64,000 nucleotides of DNA from Centroscyllium fabricii (lineage: Eukaryota): NCBI GenBank assembly GCA_051313645.2, contig JBNRSN020000089.1, positions 2,542,001 through 2,606,000 of the forward strand, read 5' to 3'. Shown piece by piece: positions 33,301-64,000 of the stretch. A program made the position numbers and the translations under genes. The notes under the pieces were generated by a model. That model was not told the origin of the DNA, made no database searches, and worked only from the letters and a program-made list of their open reading frames with translations. Each line of letters starts with the position of its first letter. Position 1 is the first letter of the stretch.

Positions 33301-35135
33301 ACAATACATAAGACATTATCCATCAGTGTACAATACATCAGACATTATCTACCTGTGAGCAATACATCAGACAATATCCATCTGTGTACAATACATCAGA
33401 CAAATGTCCATCTGTGTACAATACATCAGACAATATCCATCTGTGTAAAATACATCAGACAATGTCCATCTGTGTCCAATACATCAGACAATATCCATCT
33501 GTGAACAATACATCAGACAACAACCATCTGTGTACAATACATCAGACAATATCCATCTGTGTACAATACATCACTAAATGTCCATCTGTGTACAATAAAT
33601 CAGGCAATATCCATCTGCGTACAATACACCAGACATGGTCCATCTGTGAACAATACATCAGTCCTTATCCATCTGTGTACAAACCATCAGACAACATCCA
33701 TCTGTGTACAATACATCAGAGAATGTCCGTCTGTGTACAATATATCAGACAATATCCATCTGTGTACATTACATCAGACAATGTCAATCTGTGAACAATA
33801 CATCAGACAATGTCCATCTGTGTACAATATATCAGACAATGTCCATCTGTGTACAATACATCAGACAATATGCATCTGTGTGCAATATATCAGACAATGT
33901 TTATCTGTGTACAATACATCAGACAATTTCCATCTGTGAACAATACATCAGACAATTTCCATCTGTGTACAATACATCAGATAATGTCCATCTGTGCACA
34001 ATACTTCAGACAATGTCCATCTGTGAACAATGCATCAGACAATGTTCATCTATGTACAATACATCAGACATTGCCCATCTGTGTACAATATATCAGACAT
34101 TATCCATCTGTGTACAATACATCAGAAAATGTCCATCTGTATACAATGCATCAGACAATATCCATCTGTGAGCAATACATCAGACAATACCCATCGTGTA
34201 GAAAACATCAGGCATTGTCAATCTGTGTACAATACATCAGACAATATCCATCTGTGTACAATACATCAGACATTGTCCTTCTGCGTACAATACATCAGAC
34301 AATGTCCATCGGTGAACAATTCATCAGACAATGTCCATCTGTGTACAATACATCAGACATTGTCCATCTGTGTACAATACATCAGACATTGTCAAACTGT
34401 GTACAATACATCAGATATTGTCCATCTGTGTACAATACATCAGAAAATATCCATCTGTGTACAATACATCCGACAATGTCCATCTGTGAACAATATATCA
34501 GACAATGTCCATCTTTGAACAATACATCAGACAATGTCCATCTGTGTACAATACATCAGACAATGTCCATATGTGTACAATAGGTCAGACAATATCCATC
34601 TGTGAACAATACATCAGACAATGTCCATCTGTGTACAATACATCAGAAAATGTCCATCTGTGAACAATCCATTAGACAATATCCATCTTTGTACAGTACA
34701 TCAGACAAAGTCAATGTGTGTACAATACATCAGACAATGTCCATCTGTGAACAAAACATCAGACAATATCCATCTCTGAAAAATACATCAGAGGATGTCA
34801 ATCTGTGTACAATACATCAGACAATATCCATCTGTGTACAATATATCAGACATTATCCATCTGTATACAATTCATCAGACATTATCCATCTGTGTACAAT
34901 ACATCAGAAAATATCCATCTCTGAACAATACATCAGACAATGTCCATCTGTGTACAATACATCAGAGAATGTCCAACTGTGTACAATACTTAAGACAATG
35001 TCCATCTAGAGTGCAATACATCAGACAATGTCAATTTGTGTACAATACATCAGACATTATCCATCTGTGTACAATACATCAGACAATGTCCATCTGTGAA
35101 CAATAATTCAGACAATATCCATCTGTAACAGTACA
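24340..35135. repeat. Higher-order duplication, offset 6204/6262 bp (~24340-28930 recurs at ~30545-35135), with a partial third copy at offset 2783
   Basis: ORF pairs 24377/30581, 24678/30882, 26861/33065, 27606/33810 and 28591/34795 (6204); 25692/31954 and 26455/32717 (6262); 26455/29238 and 26861/29644 (2783). TCTAGA landmarks 25468/31672 and 28801/35005. Confidence 0.9.
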
Positions 35136-41100: not shown

Positions 41101-42019
41101 CAATACATCAGACAATGTCCATCTGTGATCAATACATCAGACAATGTCCATCTGTATACAATACATCAGACAATGTCCATCTGTGTACAGTACGTCAGAC
41201 AATGTCCATCAGTTTACAGTACATCAGACAATGTCCTTCTGTGTACAGTACATCAGACAATGTCCATCTGTGTACAATACATCAGACACTGTCCATCTGT
41301 GTACAATACATCAGAAAATGTCCATCTGTGAACAATATATCAGACAATATCTATCTGTGTACAATACATCAGACAATGTCCATCTGTACAATACATCAGA
41401 CAATGTCCATCTGTGTACAATACATCAGACATTATCCATCTGTGTACAATACATCAGACAATGTCCATCTGTGAACAATATATCAGACAATACGCATCTG
41501 TGAACAATGCATCAGACAATGTTCATCTGTGTACAATACATCAGACAATATCCATCTGTGTACAATACATCAGACAATATCCATCTGTGTTCAGTACATC
41601 AGACAATGTACATCTGTGAACAATATATCAGACAATATCCATCTGTGTACAATAAATCAGACAATGTCCATCTGTGAACAATACATCAGACAATGTCCAT
41701 TTGTGTACAATACATGAGACAATGTCCATCTGTACAATATATCAGACAATGTCCATCTGAGTACAATACATCAGACATTATCCATCTGTGTACAATACAT
41801 CAGACAATGTCCATCTGTGAACAATAAATCAGACAATATCCATCTGTAAACAATACATCAGACAATGTCCATCTGTGTACAATACATCAGACAATATCCA
41901 TCTGTGTACAAAAGTTCGAACAATATCCATCTGTGTACAGTATATCAGACAATGTGCATCTGTGTACAACACATCAGACAATATCCATCTGTGTACAATA
42001 CATCAGACAATGTCCATCT

Positions 42020-45000
42020 GTGATCAATACATCAGACAATGTCCATCTGTGTACAATACATCAGACAATGTCCATCTGTGTACAGTACGTCAGACAATGT
42101 CCATCTGTTTACAGTACATCAGGCAATGTCCTTCTGTGTACAGTACATCAGACAATGTCCATCTGTGTACAATACATCAGACACTGTCCATCTGTGTACA
42201 ATACATCAGAAAATGTCCATCTGTGAACAATACATCAGACAATATCTATCTGTGTACTATACATCAGACAATGTCCATCTGTACAATACATCAGACAATG
42301 TCCATCTGTGTACAATACATCAGACATTATCCATCTGTGTACAATACATCAGACAATGTCCATCTGTGAACAATATATCAGACAATACGAATCTGTGAAC
42401 AATATATCAGACAATGTTCATCTGTGTACAATACATCAGACAATATCCATCTGTGTACAATACATCAGACAATATCCATCTGTGTACAGTACATCAGACA
42501 ATGTACATCTGTGAACAATATATCAGACAATATCCATCTGTGTACAATACATCAGACAATGTCCACCTGTGAACAATACATCAGACAATGTCCATCTGTG
42601 TACAATACATCAGACAATGTCCATCTGTACAATATATCAGACAATGTCCATTTGTGTACAATTCATCAGACATTATCCATCTGTGTACAATTCATCAGAC
42701 AATGTCCATCTGTGAACAATACATCAGATAATATCCATCTGTGAACAATACACCAAACAATGTCCATCTGTGTACAATACATCAGACAATATCCATCTGT
42801 GTACAATACATCAGACAATATTCATCTGTGTACAGTACATCAGACAAAGTCCATCTGTGTACAGTACATCAGACAATGTCCTTCTGTGTACAGTATATCA
42901 GACAATGTCCATCTGTGTACAATACATCAGACTCTGTCCATCTGTGTACAATACATCAGAAAATGTCCATCTGTGAACAATACATCAGACAATATCCATC
43001 TGTGTACAATACATCAGACAATGTCCATCTGTACAATACATCAGACAATGTCCATCTGTGTACAATACATCAGACATTATCCATCTGTGTACAATACATC
43101 AGACCATGTCGATCTGTGAACAATACGTCAGACAATATCCATCTGTGAACAATACATCAGACAATGTCCATCTGTGTACAATACATCAGACAATATCCAT
43201 CTGTGTACAATACATCAGACAATATCCATCTGAGTACAGTACATCAGACAATGTCCATCTGTGTACAGTACATCAGACAATGTCCTTCTGTGTACAGTAT
43301 TTCAGACAATGTCCATCTGTGTACAATACATCAGACTCTCTCCATCTGTGTACAACACATCAGAAAATGTACATCTGTGAACAATACATCAGACAATATC
43401 CATCTGTGAACAATACATCAGAAAATGTCCATCTGTGCACAATACATAAGACATTATCAATCTGTGAACAATACATCCGACATTATCTATCTGTGTACAA
43501 TACATCAGACAATATCCATCTGTGAACAATACATCAAACAATAACCATCTGTGTACAATACATCAGACAATATCCATTTGTGTACAATACATCAGAAAAT
43601 GTCCAATTGTGTACAATACATCAGACAATATCCATCTGTGTACAATACTTCAGACATTATCCATCTTTGAACAATACATCAGACATTATCCATCTGTGTA
43701 CAATACATCAGATATGGTCCATCTGTGAACAATACATCAGACATTATCCATCTGTATACAAAACATCAGAAAATATCCAACTGTGTACTATATATCAGAC
43801 AATGTCCATTTGTGTACAATACGTCAGACAATATCCATCTGTGTACAATACATCAGACAATGTCCATCTGTGTACAATATATCAGACAATGTCCATCTGT
43901 GAACAATACATCAGACAATATCCATCTGTGAACAATACATCAGACAATATCCATCTGTGTAAAATACATCAGACAATGTCCATCTGTACAATACATCAGA
44001 CAATGTCCATCTGTGTACAATACATCAGACATTATCCATCTGTGTACAATACATAAGGCAATGTCCATCTGTGAACAGTAAATCAGAAAATATCCATCTG
44101 TGAACAATACATCAGACAATGTCCATCTGTGTACAATACATCAGTCAATATCCACCTGTTTACAATACATCAGACAATATCCATCTGTATACAGTATATC
44201 AGACAATGTCCATCTGTGTACAATATATCAGGCACTATCCATCTGTGTATAATACATCAGACAATGTCAATCTGTGAACAATACATCAGACATTGTCCAT
44301 CTGTGTACAATACATCAGACAATGTCCATCTGTGTACAGTACATCAGACAATGTCCATCTGTGCACAGAACATCAGACAATGTATTTCTGTGTACAGTAC
44401 ATCAGACAATGTCCATCTGTGTACAATACATCAGACAATGTCCATCTGTGTGCAATATATCGGACAATGTCCATCTGTGAACAATACTTCAGACAATATC
44501 TATCTGTGAACAATACATCAGACAATATCCATCTGTGTACAATACATCAGACAATGTCCACCTGTACAATACATCAGACAATATCCATCTGTGAACTATA
44601 CATCAGACAATGTCCATCTGTGAACAATACATCAGACAATATCCATCTGTGTACAATACATCAGGCAATATCCATCTGTATACAGTATATCAGACAATGT
44701 CCATCTGTGTACATTACATCAGATAATATCCATCTGTGTACAATACATCAGACAATGTCCATCTGTGAACAATACACCAGACAATGTCCATCTGTGTACA
44801 ATACATCAGACAATGTCCATCTGTACAATATATCAGACAATGTCCATCTGAGTACAATACATCAGACATTATCCATCTGTGTACAATAAATCAGACAATG
44901 TCCATCTGTGAACAATACATCAGATAATATCCATCTGTGAACAATACATCAGACAATGTCCATCTGTGTACAATACATCAGACCATGTCGATCTGTGAAC

Positions 45001-48000
45001 AATACGTCAGACAATATCCATCTGTGAACAATACATCAGACAATGTCCATCTGTGTACAATACATCAGACAATGTCCATCTGTGTACAATACATCAGACA
45101 ATGTCCATCTGTGTACAGTACGTCAGACAATGTCCATCTGTTTACAGTACATCAGGCAATGTCCTTCTGTGTACAGTACATCAGACAATGTCCATCTGTG
45201 TACAATACATCAGACACTGTCCATCTGTGTACAATACATCAGAAAATGTCCATCTGTGAACAATACATCAGACAATATCTATCTGTGTACTATACATCAG
45301 ACAATGTCCATCTGTACAATACATCAGACAATGTCCATCTGTGTACAATACATCAGACATTATCCATCTGTGTACAATACATCAGACAATGTCCATCTGT
45401 GAACAATATATCAGACAATACGAATCTGTGAACAATATATCAGACAATGTTCATCTGTGTACAATACATCAGACAATATCCATCTGTGTACAATACATCA
45501 GACAATATCCATCTGTGTACAGTACATCAGACAATGTACATCTGTGAACAATATATCAGACAATATCCATCTGTGTACAATACATCAGACAATGTCCACC
45601 TCTGAACAATTCATCAGACAATGTCCATCTGTGTACAATACATCAGACAATGTCCATCTGTACAATATATCAGACAATGTCCATTTGTGTACAATACATC
45701 AGACATTATCCATCTGTGTACAATTCATCAGACAATGTCCATCTGTGAACAATACATCAGATAATATCAATCTGTGAACAATACACCAAACAATGTCCAT
45801 CTGTGTACAATACATCAGACAATATCCATCTGTGTACAATACATCAGACAATATTCATCTGTGTACAGTACATCAGACAAAGTCCATCTGTGTACAGTAC
45901 ATCAGACAATGTCCTTCTGTGTACAGTATATCAGACAATGTCCATCTGTGTACAATACATCAGACTCTGTCCATCTGTGTACAATACATCAGAAAATGTC
46001 CATCTGTGAACAATACATCAGACAATATCCATCTGTGTACAATACATCAGACAATGTCCATCTGTACAATACATCAGACAATGTCCATCTGTGTACAATA
46101 CATCAGACATTATCCATCTGTGTACAATACATCAGACCATGTCGATCTGTGAACAATACGTCAGACAATATCCATCTGTGAACAATATTTCAGACAATGT
46201 CCATCTGTGTACAATACATCAGACAATATCCATCTGTGTACAATACATCAGACAATATCCATCTGTGTACAGTACATCAGACAATGTCCATCTGTGTACA
46301 GTACATCAGAAAATGTCCTTCTGTGTACAGTATTTCAGACAATGTCCATCTGTGTACAATACATCAGACTCTGTCCATCTGTGTACAACACATCAGAAAA
46401 TGTTCATCTGTGAACAATACATCAGACAATATCCATCTGTGAACAATACATCAGAAAATGTCCATCTGTGCACAATACATAAGACATTATCAATCTGTGT
46501 ACAATATATCCGACATTATCTATCTGTGTACAATACATCAGACAATATCCATCTGTGAACAATACATCAAACAATAACCATCTGTGTACAATACATCAGA
46601 CAATATCCATTTGTGTACAATACATCAGAAAATGTCCAATTGTGTACAATACATCAGACAATATCCATCTGTGTACAATACATCAGACATTATCCATCTG
46701 TGAACAATACATCAGACATTATCCATCTGTGTACAATACATCAGATATGGTCCATCTGTGAACAATACATCAGACATTATCCATCTGTATACAAAACATC
46801 AGAAAATATCCAACTGTGTACTATATATCAGACAATGTCCATTTGTGTACAATACGTCAGACAATATCCATCTGTGTACAATACATCAGACAATGTCCAT
46901 CTGTGTACAATATATCAGACAATGTCCATCTGTGAACAATACATCAGACAATATCCATCTGTGAACAATACATCAGACAATATCCATCTGTGTACAATAC
47001 ATCAGACAATGTCCATCTGTACAATACATCAGACAATGTCCATCTGTGTACAATACATCAGACATTATCCATCTGTGTACAATACATAAGGCAATGTCCA
47101 TCTGTGAACAGTAAATCAGAAAATATCCATCTGTGAACAATACATCAGACAATGTCCATCTGTGTACAATACATCAGTCAATATCCACCTGTTTACAATA
47201 CATCAGACAATATCCATCTGTATACAGTATATCAGACAATGTCCATCTGTGTACAATATATCAGGCACTATCCATCTGTGTATAATACATCAGACAATGT
47301 CAATCTGTGAACAATACATCAGACATTGTCCATCTGTGTACAATACATCAGACAATGTCCATCTGTGTACAGTACATCAGACAATGTCCATCTGTGCACA
47401 GAACATCAGACAATGTATTTCTGTGTACAGTACATCAGACAATGTCCATCTGTGTACATTACATCAGACAATGTCCATCTGTGTGCAATATATCAGACAA
47501 TGTCCATCTGTGAACAATACTTCAGACAATATCCATCTGTGAACAATACATCAGACAATATCCATCTGTGTACAATACATCAGACAATGTCCATCTGTAC
47601 AATACATCAGACAATATCCATCTGTGAACTATACATCAGACAATGTCCATCTGTGAACAATACATCAGACAATATCCATCTGTGTACAATACATCAGGCA
47701 ATATCCATCTGTATACAGTATATCAGACAATGTCCATCTGTGTACATTACATCAGATAATATCCATCTGTGTACAATACATCAGACAATGTCCATCTGTG
47801 AACAATACACCAGACAATGTCCATCTGTGTACAATACATCAGACAATGTCCATCTGTACAATATATCAGACAATGTCCATCTGAGTACAATACATCAGAC
47901 ATTATCCATCTGTGTACAATAAATCAGACAATGTCCATCTGTGAACAATACATCAGATAATATCCATCTGTGAACAATACATCAGACAATGTCCAACTGT

Positions 48001-48100
48001 GTACAATACATCAGACCATGTCGATCTGTGAACAATACGTCAGACAATATCCATCTGTGAACAATACATCAGACAATGTCCATCTGTGTACAATACATCA
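42020..48100. repeat. Tandem duplication of a 3033-bp satellite block
   Basis: ORF pairs 42308/45341, 42741/45774, 43522/46555, 44129/47162, 44293/47326 and 44937/47970 all have offset 3033. Ends approximate. Confidence 0.92.
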
Positions 48101-49870
48101 GACAATATCCATCTGTGTACAATACATCAGACAATATCCATCTGTGTACAGTACATCGGACAATGTCCATCTGTGTACAGTACATCAGACAATGTCCTTC
48201 TGTGTACAGTATTTCAGACAATGTCCATCTATGTACAATACATCAGACTCTGTCCATCTGTGTACAATACATCAGAAAATGTTCATCTGTGAACAATACA
48301 TCAGACAATATCCATCTGTGAACAATACATCAGAAAATGTCCATCTGTGCACAATACATAAGACATTATCAATCTGTGTACAATACATCCGACATTATCT
48401 ATCTGTGTACAATACATCAGATAATATCCATCTGTGAACAATATATCAAACAATAACCATCTGTGTACAATACATCAGACAATATCCATTTGTGTACAAT
48501 ACATCAGAAAATGTCCAATTGTGTACAATACATCAGACAATATCCATCTGTGTACAATACATCAGACATTATCCATCTGTGAACAATATATCAGACATTA
48601 TCCATCTGTGTACAATACATCAGATATGGTCCATCTGTGAACAATACATCAGACATTATCCATCTGTATACAAAACATCAGAAAATATCCAACTGTGTAC
48701 TATATATCAGACAATGTCCATTTGTGTACAATACGTCAGACAATATCCATCTGTGTACAATACATCAGACAATGTCCATCTGTGTACAATATATCAGACA
48801 ATGTCCATCTGTGAACAATACATCAGACAATATCCATCTGTGAATAATACATCAGACAATATCCATCTGTGTACAATACATCAGACAATGTCCATCTGTA
48901 CAATACATCAGACAATGTCCATCTGTGTACAATACATCAGACATTATCCATCTGTGTACAATACATAAGGCAATGTCCATCTGTGAACAGTAAATCAGAA
49001 AATATCCATCTGTGAACAATACATCAGACAATGTCCATCTGTGTACAATACATCAGTCAATATCCACCTGTTTACAATACATCAGACAATATCCATCTGT
49101 ATACAGTATATCAGACAATGTCCATCTGTGTACAATATATCAGGCACCATCCATCTGTGTATAATACATCAGACAATGTCAATCTGTGAACAATACATCA
49201 GACATTGTCCATCTGTGTACAATACATCAGACAATGTCCATCTGTGTACAGTACATCAGACAATGTCCATCTGTGCACAGAACATCAGACAATGTATTTC
49301 TGTGTACAGTACATCAGACAATGTCCATCTGTGTACAATACATCAGACAATGTCCATCTGTGTGCAATATATCAGACAATGTCCATCTGTGAACAATACT
49401 TCAGACAATATCCATCTGTGAACAATACATCAGACAATATCCATCTGTGTACAATACATCAGAAAATGTCCATCTGAACAATACATCAGACAATATCCAT
49501 CTGTGAACTATACATCAGACAATGTCCATCTGTGAACAATACATCAGACAATATCCATCTGTGTACAATACATCAGGCAATATCCATCTGTATACAGTAT
49601 ATCAGACAATGTCCATCTGTGTACATTACATCAGATAATATCCATCTGTGTACAATACATCAGACAATGTCCATCTGTGAACAATACACCAGACAATGTC
49701 CATCTGTGTACAATACATCAGACAATGTCCATCTGTACAATATATCAGACAATGTCCATCTGAGTACAATACATCAGACATTATCCATCTGTGTACAATA
49801 AATCAGACAATGTCCATCTGTGAACAATACATCAGATAATATACATCTGTGAACAATACATCAGACAATG
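46120..49870. repeat. Tandem duplication of an 1879-bp satellite block, overlapping the 3033-bp duplication
   Basis: ORF pairs 46197/48076, 46555/48434, 46613/48492, 47162/49041 and 47307/49186 have offset 1879. Confidence 0.9.
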
Positions 49871-50289
49871 TCCATCTGTGTACAATACATCAGACAATAT
49901 CCATCTGTGTACAATACATCAGACAATATCCATCTGTGTACAGTACATCAGACAATGTCCATCTGTGTACAGTACATCAGACAATGTCCTTCGGTGTACA
50001 GTATATCAGACAATGTCCATCTGTGTACAATACATCAGACTCTGTCCATCTGTGTACAATACATCAGAAAATGTCCATCTGTGAACAATAAATCAGACAA
50101 TATCCATCTTTGTACAATACATCAGACAGTGTCCATTTGTACAATACATCAGACAATGTCCATCTGTGTAGAATACATCAGACATTATCCATCTGTGTAC
50201 AATACATCAGGCAATGTCCATCTGTGAACAATAAACCAGACAATATCCATCTGTAAACAATACATCAGACAATGTCCATCTGTGTACAA

Positions 50290-52130
50290 TACATCAGACA
50301 ATATCCATCTGTGTACAGTATATCAGACAATGTGCATCTGTGTACAATACATCAGACAATATCCATCTGTGTACAATACATCAGACAATGTCCATCTGTG
50401 ATCAATACATCAGACAATGTCCATCTGTGCACAATACATCAGACAATGTCCATCTGTGTACAGTACGTCAGACAATGTCCATCTGTTTACAGTACATCAG
50501 GCAATGTCCTTCTGTGTACAGTACATCAGACAATGTCTATCTGTGTACAATACATCAGACACTGTCCATCTGTGTACAATACATCAGAAAATTTCCATCT
50601 GTGAACAATACATCAGACAATATCTATCTGTGAACAATACATCAGACAATGTCCATCTGTACAATACATCAGACAATGTCCATCTGTGTACAATACATCA
50701 GACATTATCCATTTGTGTACAATACATCAGACAATGTCCAACTGTGAACAATATATCAGACAATACGAATCTGTGAACAATACATCAGACAATGTTCATC
50801 TGTGTACAATACATCAGACAATATCCATCTGTGTACAATACATCAGACAATATCCATCTGTGTACAGTACATCAGACAATGTAAATCTGTGAACAATATA
50901 TCAGACAATATCCATCTGTGTACAATACATCAGACAATGTCCATCTGTGAACAAAACATCAGACAATGTCCATCTGTGTACAATACATCAGACAATGTCC
51001 ATTTGTACAATATATCAGACAATGTCCATTTGTGTACAATACATCAGACATTATCCATTTGTGTACAATACATCAGACAATGTCCATCTGTGAACAATAC
51101 ATCAGATAATATCCATCTGTGAACAATACACCAAACAATGTCCATCTGTGTACAATACATCAGACAATATCCATCTGTGAACAATACATCAGACAATATT
51201 CATCTGTGTACAGTACATCAGACAAAGTCCATCTGTGTACAGTACATCAGACAATGTCCTTCTGTGTACAGTATATCAGACAATGTCCATCTGTGTACAA
51301 TACATCAGACTCTGTCCATCTGTGTACAATACATCAGAAAATGTCCATCTGTGAACAATACATCAGACAATATCCATCTGTGTACAATACATCAGACAAT
51401 GTCCATCTGTACAATACATCAGACAATGTCCATCTGTGTACAATACATCAGACATTATCCATCTGTGTACAATACATCAGACCATGTCGATCTGTGAACA
51501 ATACGTCAGACAATATCCATCTGTGAACAATACATCAGACAATGTCCATCTGTGTACAATACATCAGACAATATCCATCTGTGTACAATACATCAGACAA
51601 TATCCATCTGTGTACAGTACATCAGACAATGTCCATCTGTGTACAGTACATCAGACAATGTCCTTATGTGTACAGTATTTCAGACAATGTCCATCTGTGT
51701 ACAATACATCAGACTCTGTCCATCTGTGTACAATACATCAGAAAATGTTCATCTGTGAACAATACATCAGACAATATCCATCTGTGAACAATACATCAGA
51801 AAATGTCCATCTGTGCACAATACATAAGACATTATCAATCTGTGTACAATACATCCGACATTATCTATCTGTGTACAATACATCAGACAATATCCATCTG
51901 TGAACAATACATCAAACAATAACCATCTGTGTACAATACATCAGACAATATCCATTTGTGTACAATACATCAGAAAATGTCCAACTGTGTACAATACATC
52001 AGACAATATCCATCTGTGTACAATACATCAGACATTATCCATCTGTGAACAATACATCAGACATTATCCATCTGTGTACAATACATCAGATATGGTCCAT
52101 CTGTGAACAATACATCAGACATTATCCATC
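50290..52130. repeat. Further copy of the ~41910-43750 satellite block (offset 8378)
   Basis: ORF pairs 42039/50417, 42308/50686, 42741/51119, 43058/51436 and 43522/51900; shared rare variants TACGAATC and CACCAAAC. Confidence 0.87.
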
Positions 52131-54652
52131 TGTGTACAATACATCAGACCATGTCCATCTGTGAACAATACATCAGACAATATCCATCTGTGAACAATAC
52201 ATCAGACAATGTCCATCTGTGTACAATACATCAGAAAATATCCATCTGTGTACAATACATCAGACAATATGCATGTGTGTACAGTACATCAGACAATGAC
52301 CATCTGTGTACAATACACCAGACAATATCCATCTGTGTACAATACCTCAGACAATGTCCATCTGTGAACAATACATAAGACATTATCAATCTGTGTACAA
52401 TACATCAGACATTATCCATCTGCGTACAATACATCAGACAATATCCATCTGTGAATAATACATCAGAAAATGTCCGTCTGTGTACAATACATCAGACATT
52501 ATCCATCTGTGAACAATACATCAGACAATAACCATCTGTGTACAATACATCAGACAATATCCATCGGTGTACAATATATCAGAAAATGTCCATCTGTGTA
52601 CAATACATCAGACAATATCCATATGTGTACAGTACATCAGACAATGTCCATCTGTGTACAATACATCAGACACTGTCCATCTGTGTACAATATATCAGAC
52701 AATGTCCATCTGTGAACAATACATCGGACAACATCCATCTGTGAACAATACATCAGACAATATCCAGCTGTGTACAATACATCAGACAATGTCCATCTGT
52801 ACAATACATCAGACAATGTCCATCTGTGTACAATACATCAGACATTATCCATCTGTGTACAATACATAAGACAATATACATCTGTGAACAATAAATCAGA
52901 CAATATCCATCTGTGAACAATACATCAGACCATGTCCAACTGTGTACAATACATCAGGCAATATCAATCTGTGTACAATACATCAGACAATATCCATCTG
53001 TATACAGTATATCAGACAATGTCCATCTGTGTACAATACTTCAGACAATATCCATCTGTGTACAATATATCAGACAATATCCATCTGTGAACAATACATC
53101 AGACAATGTCCATCTGTGTACAATACATCAGACAATGTCCATCTGTACAATACATCAGACAATGTCCATCTGTGTACAATACATCAGACATTATCCATCT
53201 GTGTACAATACATCAGACAATGTCCATCTGTGAACAATACATCAGATAATATCCATCTGTGAACAATACATCAGACAATTTCCATCTGTGTACAATACAT
53301 CAGACAATATCCATCTGTGTACAATACATCAGACAAATTTCATCTGTGTACCGTACATCAGACAATGTCCATCTGTGTACAGTACATCAGAAAATGTCCT
53401 TCTGTGTACAATACATCAGACTCTGTCCATCTGTGTACAATATATCAGAAAATGTCCATCTGTGAACAATACATGAGACAATATCCATCTGTGTACAATA
53501 CATCAGACAATGTTCATCTGTACAATACATCAGACAATGTCCATCTGTGTAAAATACATCAGACATTATCCATCTGTGTACAATACATCAGACCATGTCC
53601 ATCTGTGAACAATACATCAGGCAATATCCATCTGTGAACAATGCAGCAGACAATGTCCATCTGTGTACAATACATCAGAAAATATCCATCTGTGTACAAT
53701 ACATCAGACAATATCCATGTGTGTACAGTACATCAGACAATGACCATCTGTGTACAATACATCAGACAATATCCATCTGTGTACAATACATCAGACAATG
53801 TCCATCTGTGAACAATACATAAGACATTATCAATCTGTGTACAATACATCAGACATTATCCATCTGTGTACAATATATTAGACAATATCCATCTGTGAAT
53901 AATACATCAGTAAATGTCCATCTGTGTACAATACATCAGACATTATCCATCTGTGAACAATACATCAGACAATAACCAACTGTGTAACATACATCAGAAA
54001 TGTCCATCTGTGTACAATACATCAGACAATATCCATCTGTGTACAATACATCAGAAATTATCCATCTGTGAACAATACATCAGACATTATCCATCTGTGT
54101 AAAATACATCAGACATGGTCCATCTGTGAACAATACATCAGACATTATCCATCCTTGTACAATACATCAGACAATATCCATCTGTGTACAATCCATCAGA
54201 CAATATCCATCTGTGTACAAAACATCAGAGAATGTCAATCTGTGTACAAAACATCAGACAATGTCCATCTGTGAACAATACATCAGACAATATCCATCTG
54301 TGAACCATATATCAGACAATATCCATCTGTGAACAATACATCAGACAATGTCCATCTGTACAATGCATCAGACAATGTCCATCTGTGTACAATACATCAG
54401 ACATTATCCATCTGTGTACACTACATCAGACAATGTCCATCTGTGAACAATAAATCAGACAATGTCCATCTGTACAATACATCAGACAATGTCCATCTGT
54501 GTACAATACATCAGAAATTATCCATCTGTGTACACTACATCAGACAATGTCCATCTGTGAACAATAAATCAGACAATATCCATCTGTGAACAATAATTCA
54601 GACAATGTCCATCTGTGAACAATACATCAGACAATATCCATCTGTGTACAAT

Positions 54653-57600
54653 ACATCAGACAATGTTCATCTGTACAATACATCAGACAATGTCCATCTT
54701 TGTACAATACATCAGACATTATCCATCTGTGTACAATACTTCAGACCATTTCCATCTGTGAACAATTATTCAGGCAATATCCATCTGTGAACAATACCTC
54801 AGACAATGTCCATCTGTGTACAATACATCAGAAAATATCCATCTGTGTACAATACATCAGACAATATCCATGTGTGTACAGTACATCAGACAATGACCAT
54901 CTGTGTACAATACATCAGACAATATCCATCTGTGTACAATACATCAGACAATGTCCATCTGTGAACAATACATAAGACATTATCAATCTGTGTACAATAT
55001 ATCAGACATTATCCATCTGTGTACAATACATCAGACAATATCCATCTGTGAATAATACATCAGAAAATATCCATCTGTGTACAATACATCAGACATTATC
55101 CATCTGTGAACAATACATCAGACAATAACCATCTGTGTAACATACATCAGAAATGTCCATCTGTGTACAATACATCAGACAATATCCATCTGTGTACAAT
55201 ACATCAGAAATTATCCATCTGTGAACAATACATCAGACATTATCCATCTGTGTAAAATACATCAGACATGGTCCATCTGTGAACAATACATCAGACATTA
55301 TCCATCCTTGTACAATACATCAGACAATATCCATCTGTGTACAATACATCAGACCATGTCCATCTGTGTACAATCCATCAGACAATATCCATCTGTGTAC
55401 AAAACATCAGAGAATGTCCATCTGTGTACAAAACATCAGACAATGTCAATCTGTGAACAATACATCAGACAATATCCATCTGTGAACAATATATCAGACA
55501 ATATCCATCTGTGTACAATACATCAGACAATGTCCATTTGAACAATACATCAGACAATTTCCATCTGTGTACAATACATCAGACAAATTTCATCTGTGTA
55601 CCGTACATCAGACAATGTCCATCTGTGTACAGTACATCAGAAAATGTCCTTCTGTGTACAATACATCAGACTCTGTCCATCTGTGTACAATATATCAGAA
55701 AATGTCCATCTGTGAACAATACATGAGACAATATCCATCTGTGTACAATACATCAGACAATGTTCATCTGTACAATACATCAGACAATGTCCATCTGTGT
55801 ACAATACATCAGACATTATCCATCTGTGTACAATACATCAGACCATGTCCATCTGTGAACAATACATCAGGCAATATCCATCTGTGAACAATGCAGCAGA
55901 CAATGTCCATCTGTGTACAATACATCAGAAAATATCCATCTGTGTACAATACATCAGACAATATCCATGTGTGTACAGTGCATCAGACAATGACCATCTG
56001 TGTACAATACATCAGACAATATCCATCTGTGTACAATACATCAGACAATGTCCATCTGTGAACAATACATAAGACATTATCAATCTGTGTACAATACATC
56101 AGACATTATCCATCTGTGTACAATATATTAGACAATATCCATCTGTGAATAATACATCAGAAAATGTCCATCTGTGTACAATACAACAGACATTATCCAT
56201 CTGTGAACAATACATCAGACAATAAACAACTGTGTAACATACATCAGAAATGTCCATCTGTGTACAATACATCAGACAATATCCATCTGTGTACAATACA
56301 TCAGAAATTATCCATCTGTGAACAATACATCAGACATTATCCATCTGTGTAATATACATCAGACATGGTCCATCTGTGAACAATACATCAGACATTATCC
56401 ATCCTTGTACAATACATCAGACAATATCCATCTGTGTACAATACATCAGACCATGTCCATCTGTGTACAATCCATCAGACAATATCCATCTGTGTACAAA
56501 ACATCAGAGAATGTCCATCTGTGTACAAAACATCCGACAATGTCCATCTGTGAACAATACATCAGACAATATCCATCTGTGAACCATATATCAGACAATA
56601 TCCATCTGTGTACAATACATCAGACAATGTCCATCTGTACAATGCATCAGACAATGTCCATCTGTGTACAATACATCAGACATTATCCATCTGTGTACAC
56701 TACATCAGAAAATGTCCATCTGTGAACAATAAATCAGACAATGTCCATCTGTACAATACATCAGACAATGTCCATCTGTGTACAATACATCAGAAATTAT
56801 CCATCTGTGTACACTACATCAGACAATGTCCATCTGTGATCAATAAATCAGACAATATCCATCTGTGAACAATAATTCAGACAATGTCCATCTGTGAACA
56901 ATACATCAGACAATATCCATCTGTGTACAATACATCAGACAATGTTCAACTGTACAATACATCAGACAATGTCCATCTGTGTACAATACATCAGACATTA
57001 TCCATCTGTGTACAATACATCAGACCATTTCCATCTGTGAACAATACATCAGGCAATATCCATCTGTGAACAATACCTCAGACAATGTCCATCTGTGTAC
57101 AATACATCAGAAAATATCCATCTGTGTACAATACATCAGACAATATCCATGTGTGTACAGTACATCAGACAATGACCATCTGTGTACAATACATCAGACA
57201 ATATCCATCTGTGTACAATACATCAGACAATGTCCATCTGTGAACAATACATAAGACATTATCAATCTGTGTACAATATATCAGACATTATCCATCTGTG
57301 TACAATACATCAGACAATATCCATCTGTGAATAATACATCAGAAAATATCCATCTGTGTACAATACATCAGACATTATCCATCTGTGAACAATACATCAG
57401 ACAATAACCATCTGTGTAACATACATCAGACAATGTCCATCTGTGTACAATACATCAGACAATATCCATCTGTGTACAATACATCAGAAATTATCCATCT
57501 GTGAACAATACATCAGACATTATCCATCTGTGTAAAATACATCAGACATGGTCCATCTGTGAACAATACGTCAGACATTATCCATTCTTGTACAATACAT

Positions 57601-60600
57601 CAGACAATATCCATCTGTGTACAATACATCAGACCATGTCCATCTGTGTACAATCCATCAGACAATATCCATCTGTGTACAAAACATCAGAGAATGTCCA
57701 TCTGTGTACAAAACATCAGACAATGTTCATCTGTACAATACATCAGACAATGTCCATCTGTGTACAATACATCAGACATTATCCATCTGTGTACAATACT
57801 TCAGACCATTTCCATCTGTGAACAATTATTCAGGCAATATCCATCTGTGAACAATACCTCAGACAATGTCCATCTGTGTACAATACATCAGAAAATATCC
57901 ATCTGTGTACAATACATCAGACAATATCCATGTGTGTACAGTACATCAGACAATGACCATCTGTGTACAATACATCAGACAATATCCATCTGTGTACAAT
58001 ACATCAGACAATGTCCATCTGTGAACAATACATAAGACATTATCAATCTGTGTACAATATATCAGACATTATCCATCTGTGTACAATACATCAGACAATA
58101 TCCATCTGTGAATAATACATCAGAAAATATCCATCTGTGTACAATACATCAGACATTATCCATCTGTGAACAATACATCAGACAATAACCATCTGTGTAA
58201 CATACATCAGAATTGTCCATCTGTGTACAATACATCAGACAATATCCATCTGTGTACAATACATCAGAAATTATCCATCTGTGAACAATACATCAGACAT
58301 TATACATCTGTGTAAAATACATCAGACATGGTCCATCTGTGAACAATACATCAGACATTATCCATCCTTGTACAATACATCAGACAATATCCATCTGTGT
58401 ACAATACATCAGACCATGTCCATCTGTGTACAATCCATCAGACAATATCCATCTGTGTACAAAACATCAGAGAATGTCCATCTGTGTACAAAACATCAGA
58501 CAATGTCCATCTGTGAACAATACATCAGACAATATCCATCTGTGAACAATATATCAGACAATATCCATCTGTGTACAATACATCAGACAATGTCCATTTG
58601 AACAATACATCAGACAATTTCCATCTGTGTACAATACATCAGACAAATTTCATCTGTGTACCGTACATCAGACAATGTCCATCTGTGTACAGTACATCAG
58701 AAAATGTCCTTCTGTGTACAATACATCAGACTCTGTCCATCTGTGTACAATATATCAGAAAATGTCCATCTGTGAACAATACATGAGACAATATCCATCT
58801 GTGTACAATACATCAGACAATGTTCATCTGTACAATACATCAGGCAATGTCCATCTGTGTACAATACATTAGACATTATCCATCTGTGTACAATACATCA
58901 GACCATGTCCATCTGTGAACAATACATCAGGCAATATCCATCTGTGAACAATGCAGCAGACAATGTCCATCTGTGTACAATACATCAGAAAATATCCATC
59001 TGTGTACAATACATCAGACAATATCCATGTGTGTACAGTGCATCAGACAATGACCATCTGTGTACAATACATCAGACAATATCCATCTGTGTACAATACA
59101 TCATACAATGTCCATCTGTGAACAATACATAAGACATTATCAATCTGTGTACAATACATCAGACATTATCCATCTGTGTACAATATATTAGACAATATCC
59201 ATCTGTGAATAATACATCAGAAAATGTCCATCTGTGTACAATACAACAGACATTATCCATCTGTGAACAATACATCAGACAATAACCAACTGTGTAACAT
59301 ACATCAGAAATGTCCATCTGTGTACAATACATCAGACAATATCCATCTGTGTACAATACATCAGAAATTATCCATCTGTGAACAATACATCAGACATTAT
59401 CCATCTGTGTAAAATACATCAGACATGGTCCATCTGTGAACAATACATCAGACATTATCCATCCTTGTACAATACATCAGACAATATCCATCTGTGTACA
59501 ATACATCAGACCATGTCCATCTGTGTACAATCCATCAGACAATATCCATCTGTGTACAAAACATCAGAGAATGTCCATCTGTGTACAAAACATCCGACAA
59601 TGTCCATCTGTGAACAATACATCAGACAATATCCATCTGTGAACCATATATCAGACAATATCCATCTGTGTACAATACATCAGACAATGTCCATCTGTAC
59701 AATGCATCAGACAATGTCCATCTGTGTACAATATATCAGACATTATCCATCTGTGTACACTACATCAGACAATGTCCATCTGTGAACAATAAATCAGACA
59801 ATGTCCATCTGTACAATACATCAGACAATGTCCATCTGTGTACAATACATCAGAAATTATCCATCTGTGTACACTACATCAGACAATGTCCATCTGTGAT
59901 CAATAAATCAGACAATATCCATCTGTGAACAATAATTCAGACAATGTCCATCTGTGAACAATACATCAGACAATATCCATCTGTGTACAATACATCAGAC
60001 AATGTTCATCTGTACAATACATCAGACAATGTCCATCTGTGTACAATACATCAGACATTATCCATCTGTGTACAATACATCAGACCATTTCCATCTGTGA
60101 ACAATACATCAGGCAATATCCATCTGTGAACAATACCTCAGACAATGTCCATCTGTGTACAATACATCAGAAAATATCCATCTGTGTACAATACATCAGA
60201 CAATATCCATGTGTGTACAGTACATCAGACAATGACCATCTGTGTACAATACATCAGAGAATATCCATCTGTGTACAATACATCAGACAATGTCCATCTG
60301 TGAACAATACATAAGACATTATCAATCTGTGTACAATATATCAGACATTATCCATCTGTGTACAATACATCAGACAATATCCATCTGTGAATAATACATC
60401 AGAAAATATCCATCTGTGTACAATACATCAGACATTATCCATCTGTGAACAATACATCAGACAATAACCATCTGTGTAACATACATCAGACAATGTCCAT
60501 CTGTGTACAATACATCAGACAATATCCATCTGTGTACAATACATCAGAAATTATCCATCTGTGAACAATACATCAGACATTATCCATCTGTGTAAAATAC

Positions 60601-60786
60601 ATCAGACATGGTCCATCTGTGAACAATACATCAGACATTATCCATCCTTGTACAATACATCAGACAATATCCATCTGTGTACAATACATCAGACCATGTC
60701 CATCTGTGTACAATCCATCAGACAATATCCATCTGTGTACAAAACATCAGAGAATGTCCATCTGTGTACAAAACATCAGACAATGT
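54653..60786. repeat. Tandem duplication of a 3060-bp satellite block built from ~0.8-1.2 kb subunits
   Basis: The lines starting 54661 and 57721 align in register. ORF pairs 55221/58281, 55511/58571, 56164/59224, 56979/60039 and 57501/60561 have offset 3060. Subunit starts at 54068, 55221, 56318, 57501, 58281, 59378 and 60561. Confidence 0.93.
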
Positions 60787-61172
60787 CCATCTGTGAACAA
60801 TACATCAGACAATATCCATCTGTGAACAATATATCAGACAATATCCATCTGTGTACAATACATCAGACAATGTCCATCTGTATGTAACCTGGGTCTGAAA
60901 CCCAGAGTCAGGGAGAATCTCCCTAAAGGGTTAAAAATCTAGGGATCCAGTGGTCTGAGGTCAGTTGACCTCTTCGGTGCCAGTTTGTCTGGAAGTTTGA
61001 TCACAAGGGGGTTGTTGACCAGGTGTGAGTATGGACAATGTTTCAGACAGGCTGGGCTGCCATGGAAACCAGCACTCGGCTCCGGCCAGTCTGGAAAAAC
61101 AAGGGGTCTTGCAGGTGGGGGCTGTGTGATTGCTTTGCGATAGGCTGGCTAAAAGTGGGGTGAGTTACTGGA

Positions 61173-61196
61173 GGGTGGAGCCAGGACAGGATAAAT
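61173..61196 (+). promoter_or_regulatory. Candidate LTR core promoter (GT/CACCC box plus TATA-like GATAAA element)
   Basis: GGGTGGAGCC at 61173, followed by GATAAAT at 61190 (GATAAAA in LTR2 at 63147), about 300 bp into the LTR. Motif-level inference only. Confidence 0.35.
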
Positions 61197-61336
61197 GGCT
61201 AGACACGCCTAGAGACAGGATTATTAAGATTGAGCTGGAGGAAGATAGAGCGCAGGAGGAAGAGAGAAGATTGAGCAGGAGGTTAGATGGAGAGAAGATC
61301 CAGGAAAGATCCAGAGAAGCCACGAGAGAGGCAGTT

Positions 61337-62082
61337 CCAAGAGCCGTCGTTATCTCCCTGGGGATGAGGAGGCTGTAGTGTACGGTCCTCATTGTCGAGC
61401 CCTGTTTGGACAGTCGTGAGTAGTGACTACTGAGAGAAGGGCTTGGGGAAGACGAGTTTGCAGGAAGCAGAGGGTGGAGAAGTGTGTTTGATGCCCACTG
61501 CTGGAAGATGCTGGAGGCTTTCGTGTTAAAAGGACTGAGAGACAGTCCCAAGAGCCGTCGTTGTTTCCCTTGGGATGAGTAGGCTGTAGTGTACGGTACT
61601 CATTGCCGAGCCCTATTCGGACAGTCGTGAGTAGCACTTACTGAGAGAAGGGCTTGGGGAAGACGAGGTTGCAGGAAGCAGAGGGTGGAGAAGTGTGTGC
61701 GACGCCCACTGCTGGAGGATGCTGGAGGCTTTCATGTTAAAAGGACTGAGAGACAGTCCCAAGAGCCGTCGTTGTTTCCCTTGGGATGAGTAGGCTGTAG
61801 TGTACGGTACTCATTGTCAAGCCCTGTTCGGACAGTCGTGAGTGGCGGCTACTGAGAGAAGGGCTTGGGGAAGACGAGGTTGCAGGAAACAGAGGGTGGA
61901 GAGCTGTGTGCGACGCCCACTGCTGGAAGATGCTGGAAGCTTTCGTGTTAAAAGGACAGAGGCAGATCCAAGAGCCGTCGTTGTCTCCCTTGAGATGAGG
62001 AGACTGTAGTGTACGGTCCTCATTTTCAAGCCCTATTCGGACAGTCGTGAGTAATAACTTCTGAGAAAAGGGCTTGGGGAAC
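61337..62082 (+). repeat. ~3.5 tandem copies of a 209-211-bp unit inside the 5' LTR
   Basis: The anchor CCAAGAGCCGTCGTT starts at 61337, 61548, 61759 and 61968; the fourth copy stops after GGGCTTGGGGAA. Confidence 0.97.
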
Positions 62083-62086
62083 AAGG

Positions 62087-62371
62087 TGTAAGGGTGCTAA
62101 AGTGGATGCCTTGCCATTGTAAATTGCTGATTGAAATGTGTTCTGTAAGGGTGCTAAAGCGAATGCCTTGCCATTGTAAATTGCTGATTGAAATGTGTTC
62201 TGTAAGGGTGCTAAAGCGAGTGCCTTGCCATTGTAAATTGCTGATTGAAATGTGTTCTGTAAGGGTGCTAAAGCGAGTGCCTTGCCAGTGTAAATTGCTG
62301 ATTGAAATGTGTTCTGGAAGGGTGCTAGAGCGAGTGCCTTGCCATTATAAAGTTCTGATTGAAGTGTGTTC
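62087..62371 (+). repeat. Five tandem copies of a 57-bp minisatellite inside the LTR
   Basis: Unit TGTAAGGGTGCTAAAGCGAGTGCCTTGCCATTGTAAATTGCTGATTGAAATGTGTTC starts at 62087, 62144, 62201, 62258 and 62315; the outer copies are the most diverged. Confidence 0.97.
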
Positions 62372-62519
62372 TTGGGAGTGGTTGTGAGCTGAATGAATGT
62401 GTAAATGATTTGTTGTATGACATTAATGCTGCTTTCTATTTGTGTATGCAGTTGCTAGTTGTTTAACACTGTTTGTATTTAAACTCTATCTCCCATCACT
62501 GTTATTAAAGTTTGTAAAT

Positions 62520-62525
62520 AATAAA
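62520..62525 (+). terminator. Candidate LTR polyadenylation signal
   Basis: AATAAA (with ATTAAA at 62504) in the AT-rich segment near the LTR 3' end, followed by T/GT-rich sequence. Confidence 0.55.
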
Positions 62526-62695
62526 TTTTGTCTCTGATTCATCTCTCTCAAGTTAAAAGGGTTACATTTGGGTGGAGGTCACAGAATTCTACACGTGGGG
62601 TACGTTCAGAACCTACGGGGTAATTGGTATTAACCTAACCCCCCCATTCTCAGTAAAGGAGAGGGGGGGGGGGCAATCGTAAAAAGGGTTACATT

Positions 62696-62715
62696 TGGGG
62701 GCTCGTTTCCGGGAT
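62696..62715 (+). other. Primer-binding site complementary to the 3' end of tRNA-Pro, with a 2-nt insertion
   Basis: TGGGGGCTCGTTTCCGGGAT versus the canonical tRNA-Pro PBS TGGGGGCTCGTCCGGGAT. It sits in the classic CA-TT-TGG spacing after the LTR end. Confidence 0.92.
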
Positions 62716-62772
62716 ACTGTGACTTCCAGTTTCATACCCTAGTGGAGTGAACCCATTGTTGCCGAGAGAGAG

Positions 62773-62802
62773 ATGGACGTGAGCACGGTTACTTAGTGGT
62801 GT
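62773..62802 (+). pseudogene. Possible remnant of the first 10 codons of a Gypsy gag (PNMA/Ma-type N-terminus)
   Basis: First ATG after the PBS, in a good Kozak context (GAGATGG). It reads MDVSTVT*WC, and an early WC motif recalls the N-terminus of PNMA-like Gag proteins. Very short, so weak. Confidence 0.4.
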
Positions 62803-62829
62803 AGTCATGAGGACATGACTAGGTTTGGT

Positions 62830-62839
62830 AAGGGGGGAG
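62830..62839 (+). other. Polypurine tract
   Basis: AAGGGGGGAG directly abuts the TG start of the second LTR. Confidence 0.9.
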
Positions 62840-64000
62840 TGTAACCTGGGTCTGAAACCCAGAGTCAGGGAGAATCTCCCTAAAGGGTTAAAAATCTAGG
62901 GATCCAGTGGTCTGAGGTCAGGTGACCTCTTCGGTGCCAGTTTGTCTGGAAGTTTGATCACAAGGGGGTTGTTGACCAGGTGTGAGTATGGACAATGTTT
63001 CAGACAGGCTGGGCTGCCATGGAAACCAGCACTCGGCTCCGGCCAGTCTGGAAAAACAAGGGGTCTTGCAGGTGGGGGCTGTGTGATTGCTTTGCGATAG
63101 GCTGGCTAAAAGTGGGGTGAGTTACTGGAGGGTGGAGCCAGGACAGGATAAAAGGCTAGACACGCCTAGAGACAGGATTATTAAGATTGAGCTGGAGGAA
63201 GATAGAGCGCAGGAGGAAGAGAGAAGATTGAGCAGGAGGTTAGATGGAGAGAAGATCCGGGAAAGATCCAGAGAAGCCACGAGAGAGGCAGTTCCAAGAG
63301 CCGTCGTTATCTCCCTGGGGATGAGGAGGCTGTAGTGTACGGTCCTCATTGTCGAGCCCTGTTTGGACAGTCGTGAGTAGTGACTACTGAGAGAAGGGCT
63401 TGGGGAAGACGAGGTTGCAGGAAGCACAGGGTGGAGAAGTGTGTTTGATGCCCACTGCTGGAAGATGCTGGAGGCTTTCGTGTTAAAAGGACTGAGAGAC
63501 AGTCCCAAGAACCGTCGTTGTTTCCCTTGGGATGAGTAGGCTGTAGTGTACGGTACTCATTGCCGAGCCCTATTCGGACAGTCGTGAGTAGCACTTACTG
63601 AGAGAAGGGCTTGGGGAAGACGAGGTTGCAGGAAGCAGAGGGTGGAGAAGTGTGTGCGACGCCCACTGCTGGAGGATGCTGGAGGCTTTCGTGTTAAAAG
63701 GACTGAGAGACAGTCCCAAGAGCCGTCGTTGTTTCCCTTGGGATGAGTAGGCTGTAGTGTACGGTACTCATTGTCAAGCCCTGTTCGGACAGTCGTGAGT
63801 GGCGGCTACTGAGAGAAGGGCTTGGGGAAGACGAGGTTGCAGGAAACAGAGGGTGGAGAGCTGTGTGCGACGCCCACTGCTGGAAGATGCTGGAAGCTTT
63901 CGTGTTAAAAGGACAGAGGCAGATCCAAGAGCCGTCGTTGTCTCCCTTGAGATGAGGAGACTGTAGTGTACGGTCCTCATTGTCAAGCCCTATTCGGACA
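62840..64000 (+). repeat. 3' (second) LTR, partial
   Basis: Copy of 60883-62043 with 8 substitutions and no indel found by eye over 1161 bp (~99.3%). Preceded directly by the polypurine tract. Confidence 0.95.
63294..64000 (+). repeat. Same 209-211-bp tandem units inside the second LTR (truncated)
   Basis: Copy of 61337-62043 at offset 1957. Confidence 0.96.

What the first reader, a model, noticed from the sequence alone, without database searches (positions are those of the whole stretch)
61347..62082. Tandem LTR units fold into a three-way-junction RNA with a compensatory base-pair swap
Seen in each 211-bp unit, three stems. (1) ATGAGGA...TCCTCAT in copies 1 and 4 (61364-61392, 61995-62023) becomes ATGAGTA...TACTCAT in copies 2 and 3 (61575-61603, 61786-61814), a G-C to U-A double change. 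It encloses CTGTA-GTG-TACGG. (2) CGAGCCCT/AGGGCTTG (61396-61445) becomes CAAGCCCT/AGGGCTTG in copies 3-4, G-U to A-U. (3) An outer stem TCGTT..CCC/GGGAAGACGA closes the junction in copies 1-3. Inference: an amplified structured RNA module (packaging, dimerisation, export, or an unrecognised self-cleaving motif, by analogy with retrozymes). No hammerhead core (CUGANGA/GAAA) is visible on either strand. The swap may be a single historical event, and an alternative stem TCCCAAG/CTTGGGA competes.
Basis: partly seen in the sequence, partly recalled or inferred. Interest (0 to 1): 0.7.

Follow-up and report, generated by a model that had tools for sequence, protein, structure and literature searches.

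The report
Hairpin repeats in a Gypsy LTR
The 211-base repeats sit in the end repeat of a young, protein-less jumping gene and carry two predicted RNA hairpins that likely serve as a weak signal on the element's own RNA, but the 'compensatory swap' passes through a common mismatched form, no known ribozyme core was found, and the same end repeat duplicates many other pieces too.

Summary
The stems are at the stated coordinates and the three-way fold is the predicted minimum for all four copies (z -1.7 to -2.9). The array lies in the 1,811-bp LTR of an LTR-146 bp-LTR deletion derivative of a young Ty3/Gypsy family with PNMA-type Gag. Genome-wide the 'swap' pair has four states: G-C 3,222, U-A 2,387, U·C 1,184, G·A 23. 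U·C is the usual state of single-module, full-length elements, and there the hairpin is predicted to slip register. So the swap is two single steps, and it is the only double change among 46 pairs. The long outer stem is made by the duplication junction. Signs of constraint are weak: the module is kept in 45 of 45 LTRs sampled without it as bait, and pair-keeping transitions outnumber pair-breaking ones 11:4, but controls skew too (38:23) and an energy test passes on 1 of 3 backgrounds. The LTR carries many other tandem duplications. No Rfam hit, no ribozyme core, no RNA data. One lead: paired or multiplied modules ride on short elements (21/21), U·C on full-length ones (17/17). The scan noted a similar LTR hairpin array in another genome.

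The parts
2..60881 (.). 29-bp satellite (about 2,100 copies) into which the element inserted
   Evidence: TRF; the satellite resumes after the element
60879..60882 (+). 4-bp target-site duplication TGTA (second copy just past the 3' LTR, beyond the window end)
60883..62693 (+). 5' LTR, 1,811 bp, TGTAACC...GGTTACA; 99.1% identical to the 3' LTR
61190..61196 (+). TATA-like candidate 1 (GATAAAT here, GATAAAA in the 3' LTR and in 40 of 45 sampled LTRs); if used, the array lies in a long R region
   Evidence: function inferred
61326..62081 (+). 211-bp array = [module + spacer] x3 + module
61364..61392 (+). hairpin 1, copy 1 (G-C state), predicted with a 2-nt bulge on the 5' side
61396..61445 (+). 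stem 2, copy 1
61575..61603 (+). hairpin 1, copy 2 (U-A state)
61607..61656 (+). stem 2, copy 2; apical part 61630-61640 is the most variable stretch of the module
61786..61814 (+). hairpin 1, copy 3 (U-A state)
61818..61867 (+). stem 2, copy 3
61995..62023 (+). hairpin 1, copy 4 (G-C state)
62027..62076 (+). stem 2, copy 4; the long outer stem cannot form here
62087..62372 (+). second tandem array in the same LTR, 57 bp x 5, not predicted to fold better than shuffles
62476..62483 (+). TATA-like candidate 2 (TATTTAAA, 33 of 45 sampled LTRs); if used, the array lies in U3
   Evidence: function inferred
62504..62509 (+). ATTAAA, likely polyadenylation signal (45 of 45 sampled LTRs); the AATAAA at 62520 is not conserved
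62694..62839 (+). 146-bp internal region: primer-binding site (tRNA-Pro type, recalled), the first about 109 bp of the full-length element's inside joined to its last 39 bp, polypurine tract 62830-62839
62840..64000 (+). 3' LTR with the second copy of the array (63283-64000); runs on 647 bases past the window

Best explanation
The repeats are tandem copies of a piece of the LTR of a Ty3/Gypsy retrotransposon with PNMA-type Gag, likely multiplied by reverse-transcriptase template switching at a short look-alike sequence, and each copy carries two predicted hairpins that likely act as a weakly constrained signal on the element's own RNA, most likely a Gag-binding or packaging site. Shown: the element's anatomy, its derivation from a full-length family, the copy-number range (1 to 6), the four states of the swap pair, the junction origin of the long outer stem. 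Predicted: the folds. Inferred: transcription of the module (it lies upstream of the conserved ATTAAA, so it would be in the RNA at least in the 3' LTR under either promoter model), the duplication mechanism, and the function. The functional unit would be the two hairpins, not a fixed three-way junction.
For: Element and family: LTR-146 bp-LTR with 4-bp TSD (TSD in 11 of 12 elements printed); full-length relatives with PNMA, PNMA_N, zf-CCHC, RT, RNase H and integrase domains. Origin: single-module LTRs have spacer+module once, and module end and spacer start share a GA-N-(A/G)AGGT look-alike that sits at the window's junction; RNA stem-loops raise template switching between direct repeats in retroviruses (PMC3187697, passages). 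Constraint: module kept in 45 of 45 complete LTRs sampled by PBS or PPT rather than by the module, while every 25-bp bin from 326 to 675 of the reference LTR is missing in 3 to 12 of them; all 11 hairpin-1 haplotypes shared by 2 or more insertions still fold a hairpin, -7.2 to -13.7 kcal/mol, including the U·C form (slipped register) and a 10-nt deletion; pair-keeping transitions at 11 of 32 Watson-Crick positions against pair-breaking at 4 of 32, one-sided p=0.037, favouring the + strand; shared substitutions less destabilising than matched random ones on the window copy, p=0.016, with 12 control windows at p 0.09-0.96. Packaging lead: a 146-bp inside suffices for spread, so cis signals must lie in the LTR or those 146 bp; 5'-terminal Gag-bound structures are known for Ty1 (PMC4974528, passages); in the first 269 Mb of contig C1, 21 of 21 two-LTR elements with only paired states are short and 17 of 17 with only U·C and short-or-full spacing are full-length.
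Against: Only 1 of 46 pairs has a change on both sides; shuffles reach that count 500 of 500 times. The same wobble test on 11 overlapping control windows also skews (38:23; single windows 5:1 and 6:2), so 11:4 is not clearly above background. The energy test fails on the two single-module backgrounds (p=0.13 and 0.44) and is also near threshold on the minus strand of the window copy (p=0.047). The autonomous U·C form folds only at z -1.4 to -2.0 and does not stand out in its LTR. The two reciprocal rare states are equally rare (U·C with G bulge 20, G·A 23), so there is no sign that the unpaired one is purged. The LTR holds tandem duplications of many other periods and places, including the non-folding 57-mer. 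The region 3' of the module is kept almost as well as the module. The short/full-length split reflects one or a few lineage events, and exceptions exist both ways (L034, L035, L166 full-length with three modules; L110, L111, L113, L121, L123 short with one). No homolog outside this family was found.
Confidence: 0.5

Rival explanations
1. The array is a DNA-level promoter/enhancer repeat or a neutral slippage product; the fold is incidental. If the TATTTAAA at 62476 is the promoter, the array lies in U3, where tandem enhancer repeats are common, and hairpin 1 could reflect an inverted pair of TGAG(T/G)A motifs.
For: Many other duplications in the same LTR (periods 10-72 besides 211), including a 72-bp spacer duplication without the module and the non-folding 57-mer; second TATA candidate in 33 of 45 LTRs; tandem repeats are often found in U3 and R borders cannot be set without RNA data (PMC3601003, passages); LTR enhancer repeats vary in copy number (PMC3187697, passages); weak, background-dependent structure statistics.
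Against: + strand wobble asymmetry reverses on the minus strand for all four copies; hairpin 1 survives in all 11 shared haplotypes; GATAAAA upstream is better kept (40 of 45) than the second candidate.
Confidence: 0.38
2. The module is a nuclear-export or RNA-stability element like the retroviral CTE or the avian direct repeats, which work better in several copies (recalled).
For: Long bulged stem, tandem copies, position in the RNA near the 3' end under either promoter model (inference); earlier scan notes raised the same analogy for fungal elements (unchecked).
Against: No Rfam match; no test of sequence motifs against a known export element was possible; the element has no shown intron whose retention would need such a signal.
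Confidence: 0.09
3. The module is a self-cleaving ribozyme of an unrecognised type and the short element is a retrozyme-like RNA.
For: Non-coding two-LTR element with PBS and PPT resembles plant LTR retrozymes in outline (PMC4918200, abstract); a three-way fold is predicted; a UCCCAAG loop superficially like twister L4 (recalled motif) occurs in copies 2-3.
Against: No Rfam family at E<0.05; no hammerhead, pistol, twister-sister or hairpin core; the twister-like loop varies at five positions among insertions; the one HDV-like descriptor hit spans the variable loop and has a mismatch in P1; junction-closing pairs are not conserved; autonomous elements carry the module as well.
Confidence: 0.03

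Closest known systems
TRIMs (terminal-repeat retrotransposons in miniature; Kojima 2024, PMC10886601, passages)
   Same: Two LTRs, PBS and PPT at the ends of a tiny non-coding inside, 4-bp TSD like animal Helenus, derived by internal deletion from an autonomous Gypsy partner, tandem LTR-internal-LTR chains seen (L044).
   Different: About 3.8 kb long because of 1.8-kb LTRs, against under 1 kb for TRIMs; no tRNA- or 5S-derived part found.
[quoted passage not shown]
   Same: The full-length partner's Gag hits PNMA_N (35.4 bits, cut-off 27), PNMA and zf-CCHC, followed by PR-RT-RH-IN order.
   Different: That paper lists reptile, amphibian and bony-fish genomes and names no RNA target for the domain; it does not discuss LTR structure in the passages read.
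Tandem direct repeats in retroviral LTRs and their template-switch instability (PMC3187697 and PMC3601003, passages)
   Same: Copy number varies between insertions (1-6), units are mosaics of each other, both LTRs of an element usually agree.
   Different: Units are longer (211 bp) than the 50-75-bp enhancer repeats cited, carry predicted hairpins, and may lie in R rather than U3.
Ty1 5'-terminal pseudoknot / Gag-binding region (PMC4974528, passages)
   Same: A structured cis region of an LTR retrotransposon RNA that mini-elements must keep in order to use helper proteins.
   Different: Ty1 is Copia-type, the signal is single-copy and reaches into gag; here nothing is tested and the module is in the LTR in up to six copies.
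Plant LTR retrozymes (PMC4918200, abstract)
   Same: Non-autonomous, Gypsy-type PBS/PPT, structured LTR.
   Different: No hammerhead in the LTR; the element is a plain deletion derivative of its helper.

Membership tests
Ty3/Gypsy (Metaviridae), PNMA-Gag lineage, non-autonomous derivative | TG...CA LTRs, PBS, PPT, short TSD | tested here: met
Ty3/Gypsy (Metaviridae), PNMA-Gag lineage, non-autonomous derivative | Same LTR on full-length elements with PNMA-type gag and RT-RH-IN order | tested here: met
   L034, L035:
TRIM | No coding capacity; PBS and PPT at the ends of a short inside | tested here: met
   146-bp inside
TRIM | Total length under about 1 kb | tested here: not met
   about 3.8 kb; criterion from PMC10886601
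TRIMp3 (Cassandra, Helenus, Ajax) | tRNA- or 5S-derived sequence in the LTR | tested here: not met
   ARAGORN 0 genes; Rfam no tRNA/5S hit to E=10
LTR retrozyme | Hammerhead ribozyme in each LTR | tested here: not met
   no CUGANGA on either strand; no Rfam hammerhead
LTR retrozyme | Circular RNA from LTR-to-LTR self-cleavage | not testable with these tools
   no RNA run listed
Other small self-cleaving ribozymes (twister, twister-sister, pistol, hairpin, HDV-like) | Conserved catalytic core motifs and pseudoknots | tested here: not met
   Rfam and a scan with recalled core motifs; candidate loop variable; hatchet and VS covered only by Rfam
Conserved structured RNA (covariation standard) | Several independent two-sided changes | tested here: not met
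   1 of 46 pairs in 31 distinct haplotypes of 92% mean identity; power is low
Conserved structured RNA (covariation standard) | Substitutions biased towards keeping pairs | tested here: inconclusive
   11:4 against control 38:23; energy test p 0.016, 0.13, 0.44
Packaging / Gag-binding signal | Bound by Gag and needed for encapsidation | not testable with these tools
   no RNA-protein tool; only the indirect short-versus-full-length pattern

The most novel reading that the evidence does not exclude
The bulged hairpin module is the RNA target of the RRM-like N-terminal domain of PNMA-type Gag, a domain with no known ligand, and the protein-less element has stabilised and multiplied this site to outcompete its helper's RNA for packaging, much as defective interfering genomes do. 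The family would then be a natural series (one weak, one stable, up to six stable copies) for finding what PNMA-family RNA-binding domains recognise.
Probability: 0.1. Interest if true: 0.72.

Novelty: new member of a known kind. Interest (0 to 1): 0.3.

Why it matters
As it stands this is a well-resolved example of LTR sub-repeats in a young Gypsy family, and a caution: an apparent compensatory swap among tandem copies dissolved into two single steps once genome-wide states were counted. It would matter more if the hairpins are a real Gag-binding signal, because cis signals of vertebrate metaviruses are poorly defined and the RNA target of the PNMA N-terminal domain, kept in domesticated human genes, is stated to be undemonstrated (PMC11011659).

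Tried and rejected
Rfam at E<=10: only TCL6_1 (23 bits, gathering 60) and mir-3747 (18, gathering 63), both rejected. Ribozyme core scan: nothing credible. tRNA scan: none. Distant homologs: a profile HMM over all loci then held and a covariance model over 26 loci of other families or non-family matches, 81 kb (best E 0.45) found none; PBS- and PPT-anchored genome patterns returned this family, one unrelated LTR family and chance hits; DNA and protein searches returned only near-identical copies because only the best 40-150 candidates are scored. Expression: no RNA holder listed; the four runs laid are contigs of unrecorded kind, show the same variants and say nothing on transcription; parts without cover in X5 and X6 were not used. 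The rival stem TCCCAAG/CTTGGGA has probability 0.00 on the + strand in context. A kissing-loop dimerisation site is unlikely because the stem-2 apex is the most variable part and is not self-complementary (inspection). A PDB sequence search with the Gag N-terminus found nothing. R-scape is not available here. Literature: 10 searches listed no paper on this element or on a structured LTR repeat in PNMA-type Gypsy elements; the library lacks most subscription papers and Repbase/Dfam were not searchable, so the family may already be catalogued. No supplements were read.

Full report
Setting. The window is 60.9 kb of a 29-bp satellite followed by an insertion. The insertion is LTR (60883-62693), 146 bp, LTR (62840 to 647 bases past the window), flanked by the 4-bp duplication TGTA; the LTRs are 99.1% identical over 1,811 bp. 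The genome has 7.2 Gb; earlier scan notes call it a shark (not tested here). The same LTR bounds full-length elements of about 7.9 kb whose two frames hit PNMA_N, PNMA, zf-CCHC and RT, RNase H, integrase. The 146-bp inside equals the first 109 and last 39 bases of their inside. So this is a non-autonomous deletion derivative of a young Ty3/Gypsy family with PNMA-type Gag; at least 111 near-identical RT copies exist.

The observation. The three-way fold is the + strand MFE for all four copies with z -1.7 to -2.9. In an 896-nt context stem 2 is near certain in all copies, hairpin 1 in copies 2-4, and the rival stem is not populated. Significance depends on trimming: z -2.1 to -4.9 for most paired-state haplotypes on the 99-nt core, -1.9 for one, and -1.4 to -2.0 for the four U·C haplotypes; on a fixed grid the best module windows (-2.2 to -2.8) are matched by windows elsewhere in this and two other LTRs.

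How the array arose. LTRs carry 1 to 6 modules. In single-module LTRs spacer and module occur once, and the end of the module resembles the start of the spacer; that look-alike is the junction in the window. Among 87 distinct complete LTRs, TRF finds further tandem duplications with periods of about 10, 11, 13, 17, 22, 24, 37, 47, 51, 57 and 72. One, 51 bp x 4-5 in three insertions of my sample, repeats hairpin 1 and half of stem 2 and occurs in full-length elements too; another repeats the spacer alone. Template switching during reverse transcription, which stem-loops promote, is the established route to such changes (PMC3187697, passages); that it made this array is inference. The same review notes that direct repeats are lost at high rates, so lasting arrays may be favoured, but the non-folding 57-mer lasts as well.

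The swap. In 274 distinct modules from 77 insertions the pair is G-C in 115, U-A in 108, U·C in 40 and deleted on one side in 11 (this sample was partly baited with the module). Exact genome-wide patterns give G-C 3,222, U-A 2,387, U·C 1,184, G·A 23. U·C lies one step from each paired state and is the usual state of single-module LTRs. There the hairpin is predicted to slip by two bases and keeps 11 pairs (-9.8 kcal/mol against -10.5 for U-A and -12.0 for G-C). So the double change resolves into two single changes, neither of which destroys the hairpin. It is the only two-sided change among 46 pairs in 31 distinct haplotypes (the alignment held the 31 of 103 haplotypes shared by two or more insertions plus the window copy). 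The reciprocal rare forms are equally rare (20 and 23).

Is the fold under selection? For: the module is kept in 45 of 45 LTRs sampled by PBS or PPT, while the 350 bases upstream are lost piecewise in 3-12 of them; all 11 shared hairpin-1 haplotypes still fold; pair-keeping transitions 11 of 32 against pair-breaking 4 of 32 (p=0.037), with the skew reversed on the minus strand; shared substitutions cost 0.70 against 1.32 kcal/mol expected on the window copy (p=0.016). Against: the same skew test on 11 control windows gives 38:23; stems 1+2 alone give p=0.10; the energy test gives p=0.13 and 0.44 on two single-module copies; sequence 3' of the module is kept about as well; several shared variants break pairs (61588, 61642, 61652, 61640). 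With 92% mean identity and no outgroup power is low. I put RNA-level function at about even odds.

Where in the RNA? Two TATA candidates exist: GATAAAA at LTR base 308 (40 of 45) and TATTTAAA 28 bases before the conserved ATTAAA (33 of 45). The first makes a long R holding the array, the second a short R with the array in U3. Borders need RNA data (PMC3601003, passages). Under either model the 3' LTR copy would be transcribed (inference). No RNA run is listed, which says nothing either way.

What it might do. Ribozyme cores and Rfam families are absent, and the retrozyme test fails on its defining feature (PMC4918200, abstract). The best functional lead is packaging: a 146-bp inside suffices for spread, Ty1 mini-elements depend on Gag-bound 5' structures (PMC4974528, passages), and in the first 269 Mb of contig C1 (263 sites, 76 elements; 35 seen with one LTR and 3 of mid or mixed type left out of the table) 21 of 21 two-LTR elements with only paired states are short and 17 of 17 with only U·C are full-length. 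This is one or a few lineage events, with exceptions both ways, not 38 independent trials. The partner Gag has the N-terminal RRM-like domain whose RNA-binding function is stated to be undemonstrated (PMC11011659, section read whole), which gives the bold reading in the section on the most novel reading.

Verdict. Observation confirmed, interpretation partly supported. It works like other LTR sub-repeats, possibly with a structured cis signal; it is a member of the PNMA-Gag Gypsy lineage as a TRIM-like derivative that exceeds the TRIM size limit (PMC10886601, passages); it is not a retrozyme. Ten literature searches listed nothing on this element (see Tried and rejected). The scan's notes hold a similar hairpin array in a Gypsy LTR of another genome (unchecked). 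Interest 0.3.

Noticed in passing
window 62555-62572 and 62682-62700: The LTR-end motif AAAAGGGTTACATTTGGG occurs twice, 127 bases apart; TSDs show the second is the true end. It looks like an old LTR end left inside U5; one subfamily (L100, L103, L105) has other sequence at the inner copy.
   Followed up: partly
window 62696-62716: The primer-binding site carries two extra T's against the form seen in 548 genomic matches; the same 146-bp inside is 100% identical in L037, L038 and L044, so this variant has spread.
   Followed up: partly
L135:520-790, L148, L149, L167: A subfamily, including full-length elements, repeats a 51-bp piece of the module 4-5 times between two TGAGTAG motifs, multiplying hairpin 1 alone.
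   Followed up: partly
L099:714-800: Inside an LTR of a second PBS-Pro family lies an ATG-started 29-codon stretch that resembles the N-terminus of MCM7 (recalled; Pfam gave no hit): possibly a captured host 5' exon.
   Followed up: partly
L032:2340-8460: Two solo LTRs 8.0 kb apart sit in a 1,225-bp tandem array that also continues outside them; likely a duplicated block of a larger satellite.
   Followed up: no
L044; contig C1 near 34.95, 213.07 and 235.82 Mb: Chains of three LTRs with two short insides (LTR-int-LTR-int-LTR), as described for TRIM tandem arrays.
   Followed up: no
window 1-60881: The 29-bp satellite has higher-order repeats of about 7.0, 6.2 and 3.0 kb, visible as repeated ORF patterns.
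   Followed up: no
runs X5, X6 (organisms B, C): Low-depth contigs from two other coded organisms hold the G-C and U-A states and the 211-bp junction at 90% identity or more; could be close relatives, transfer or contamination.
   Followed up: no
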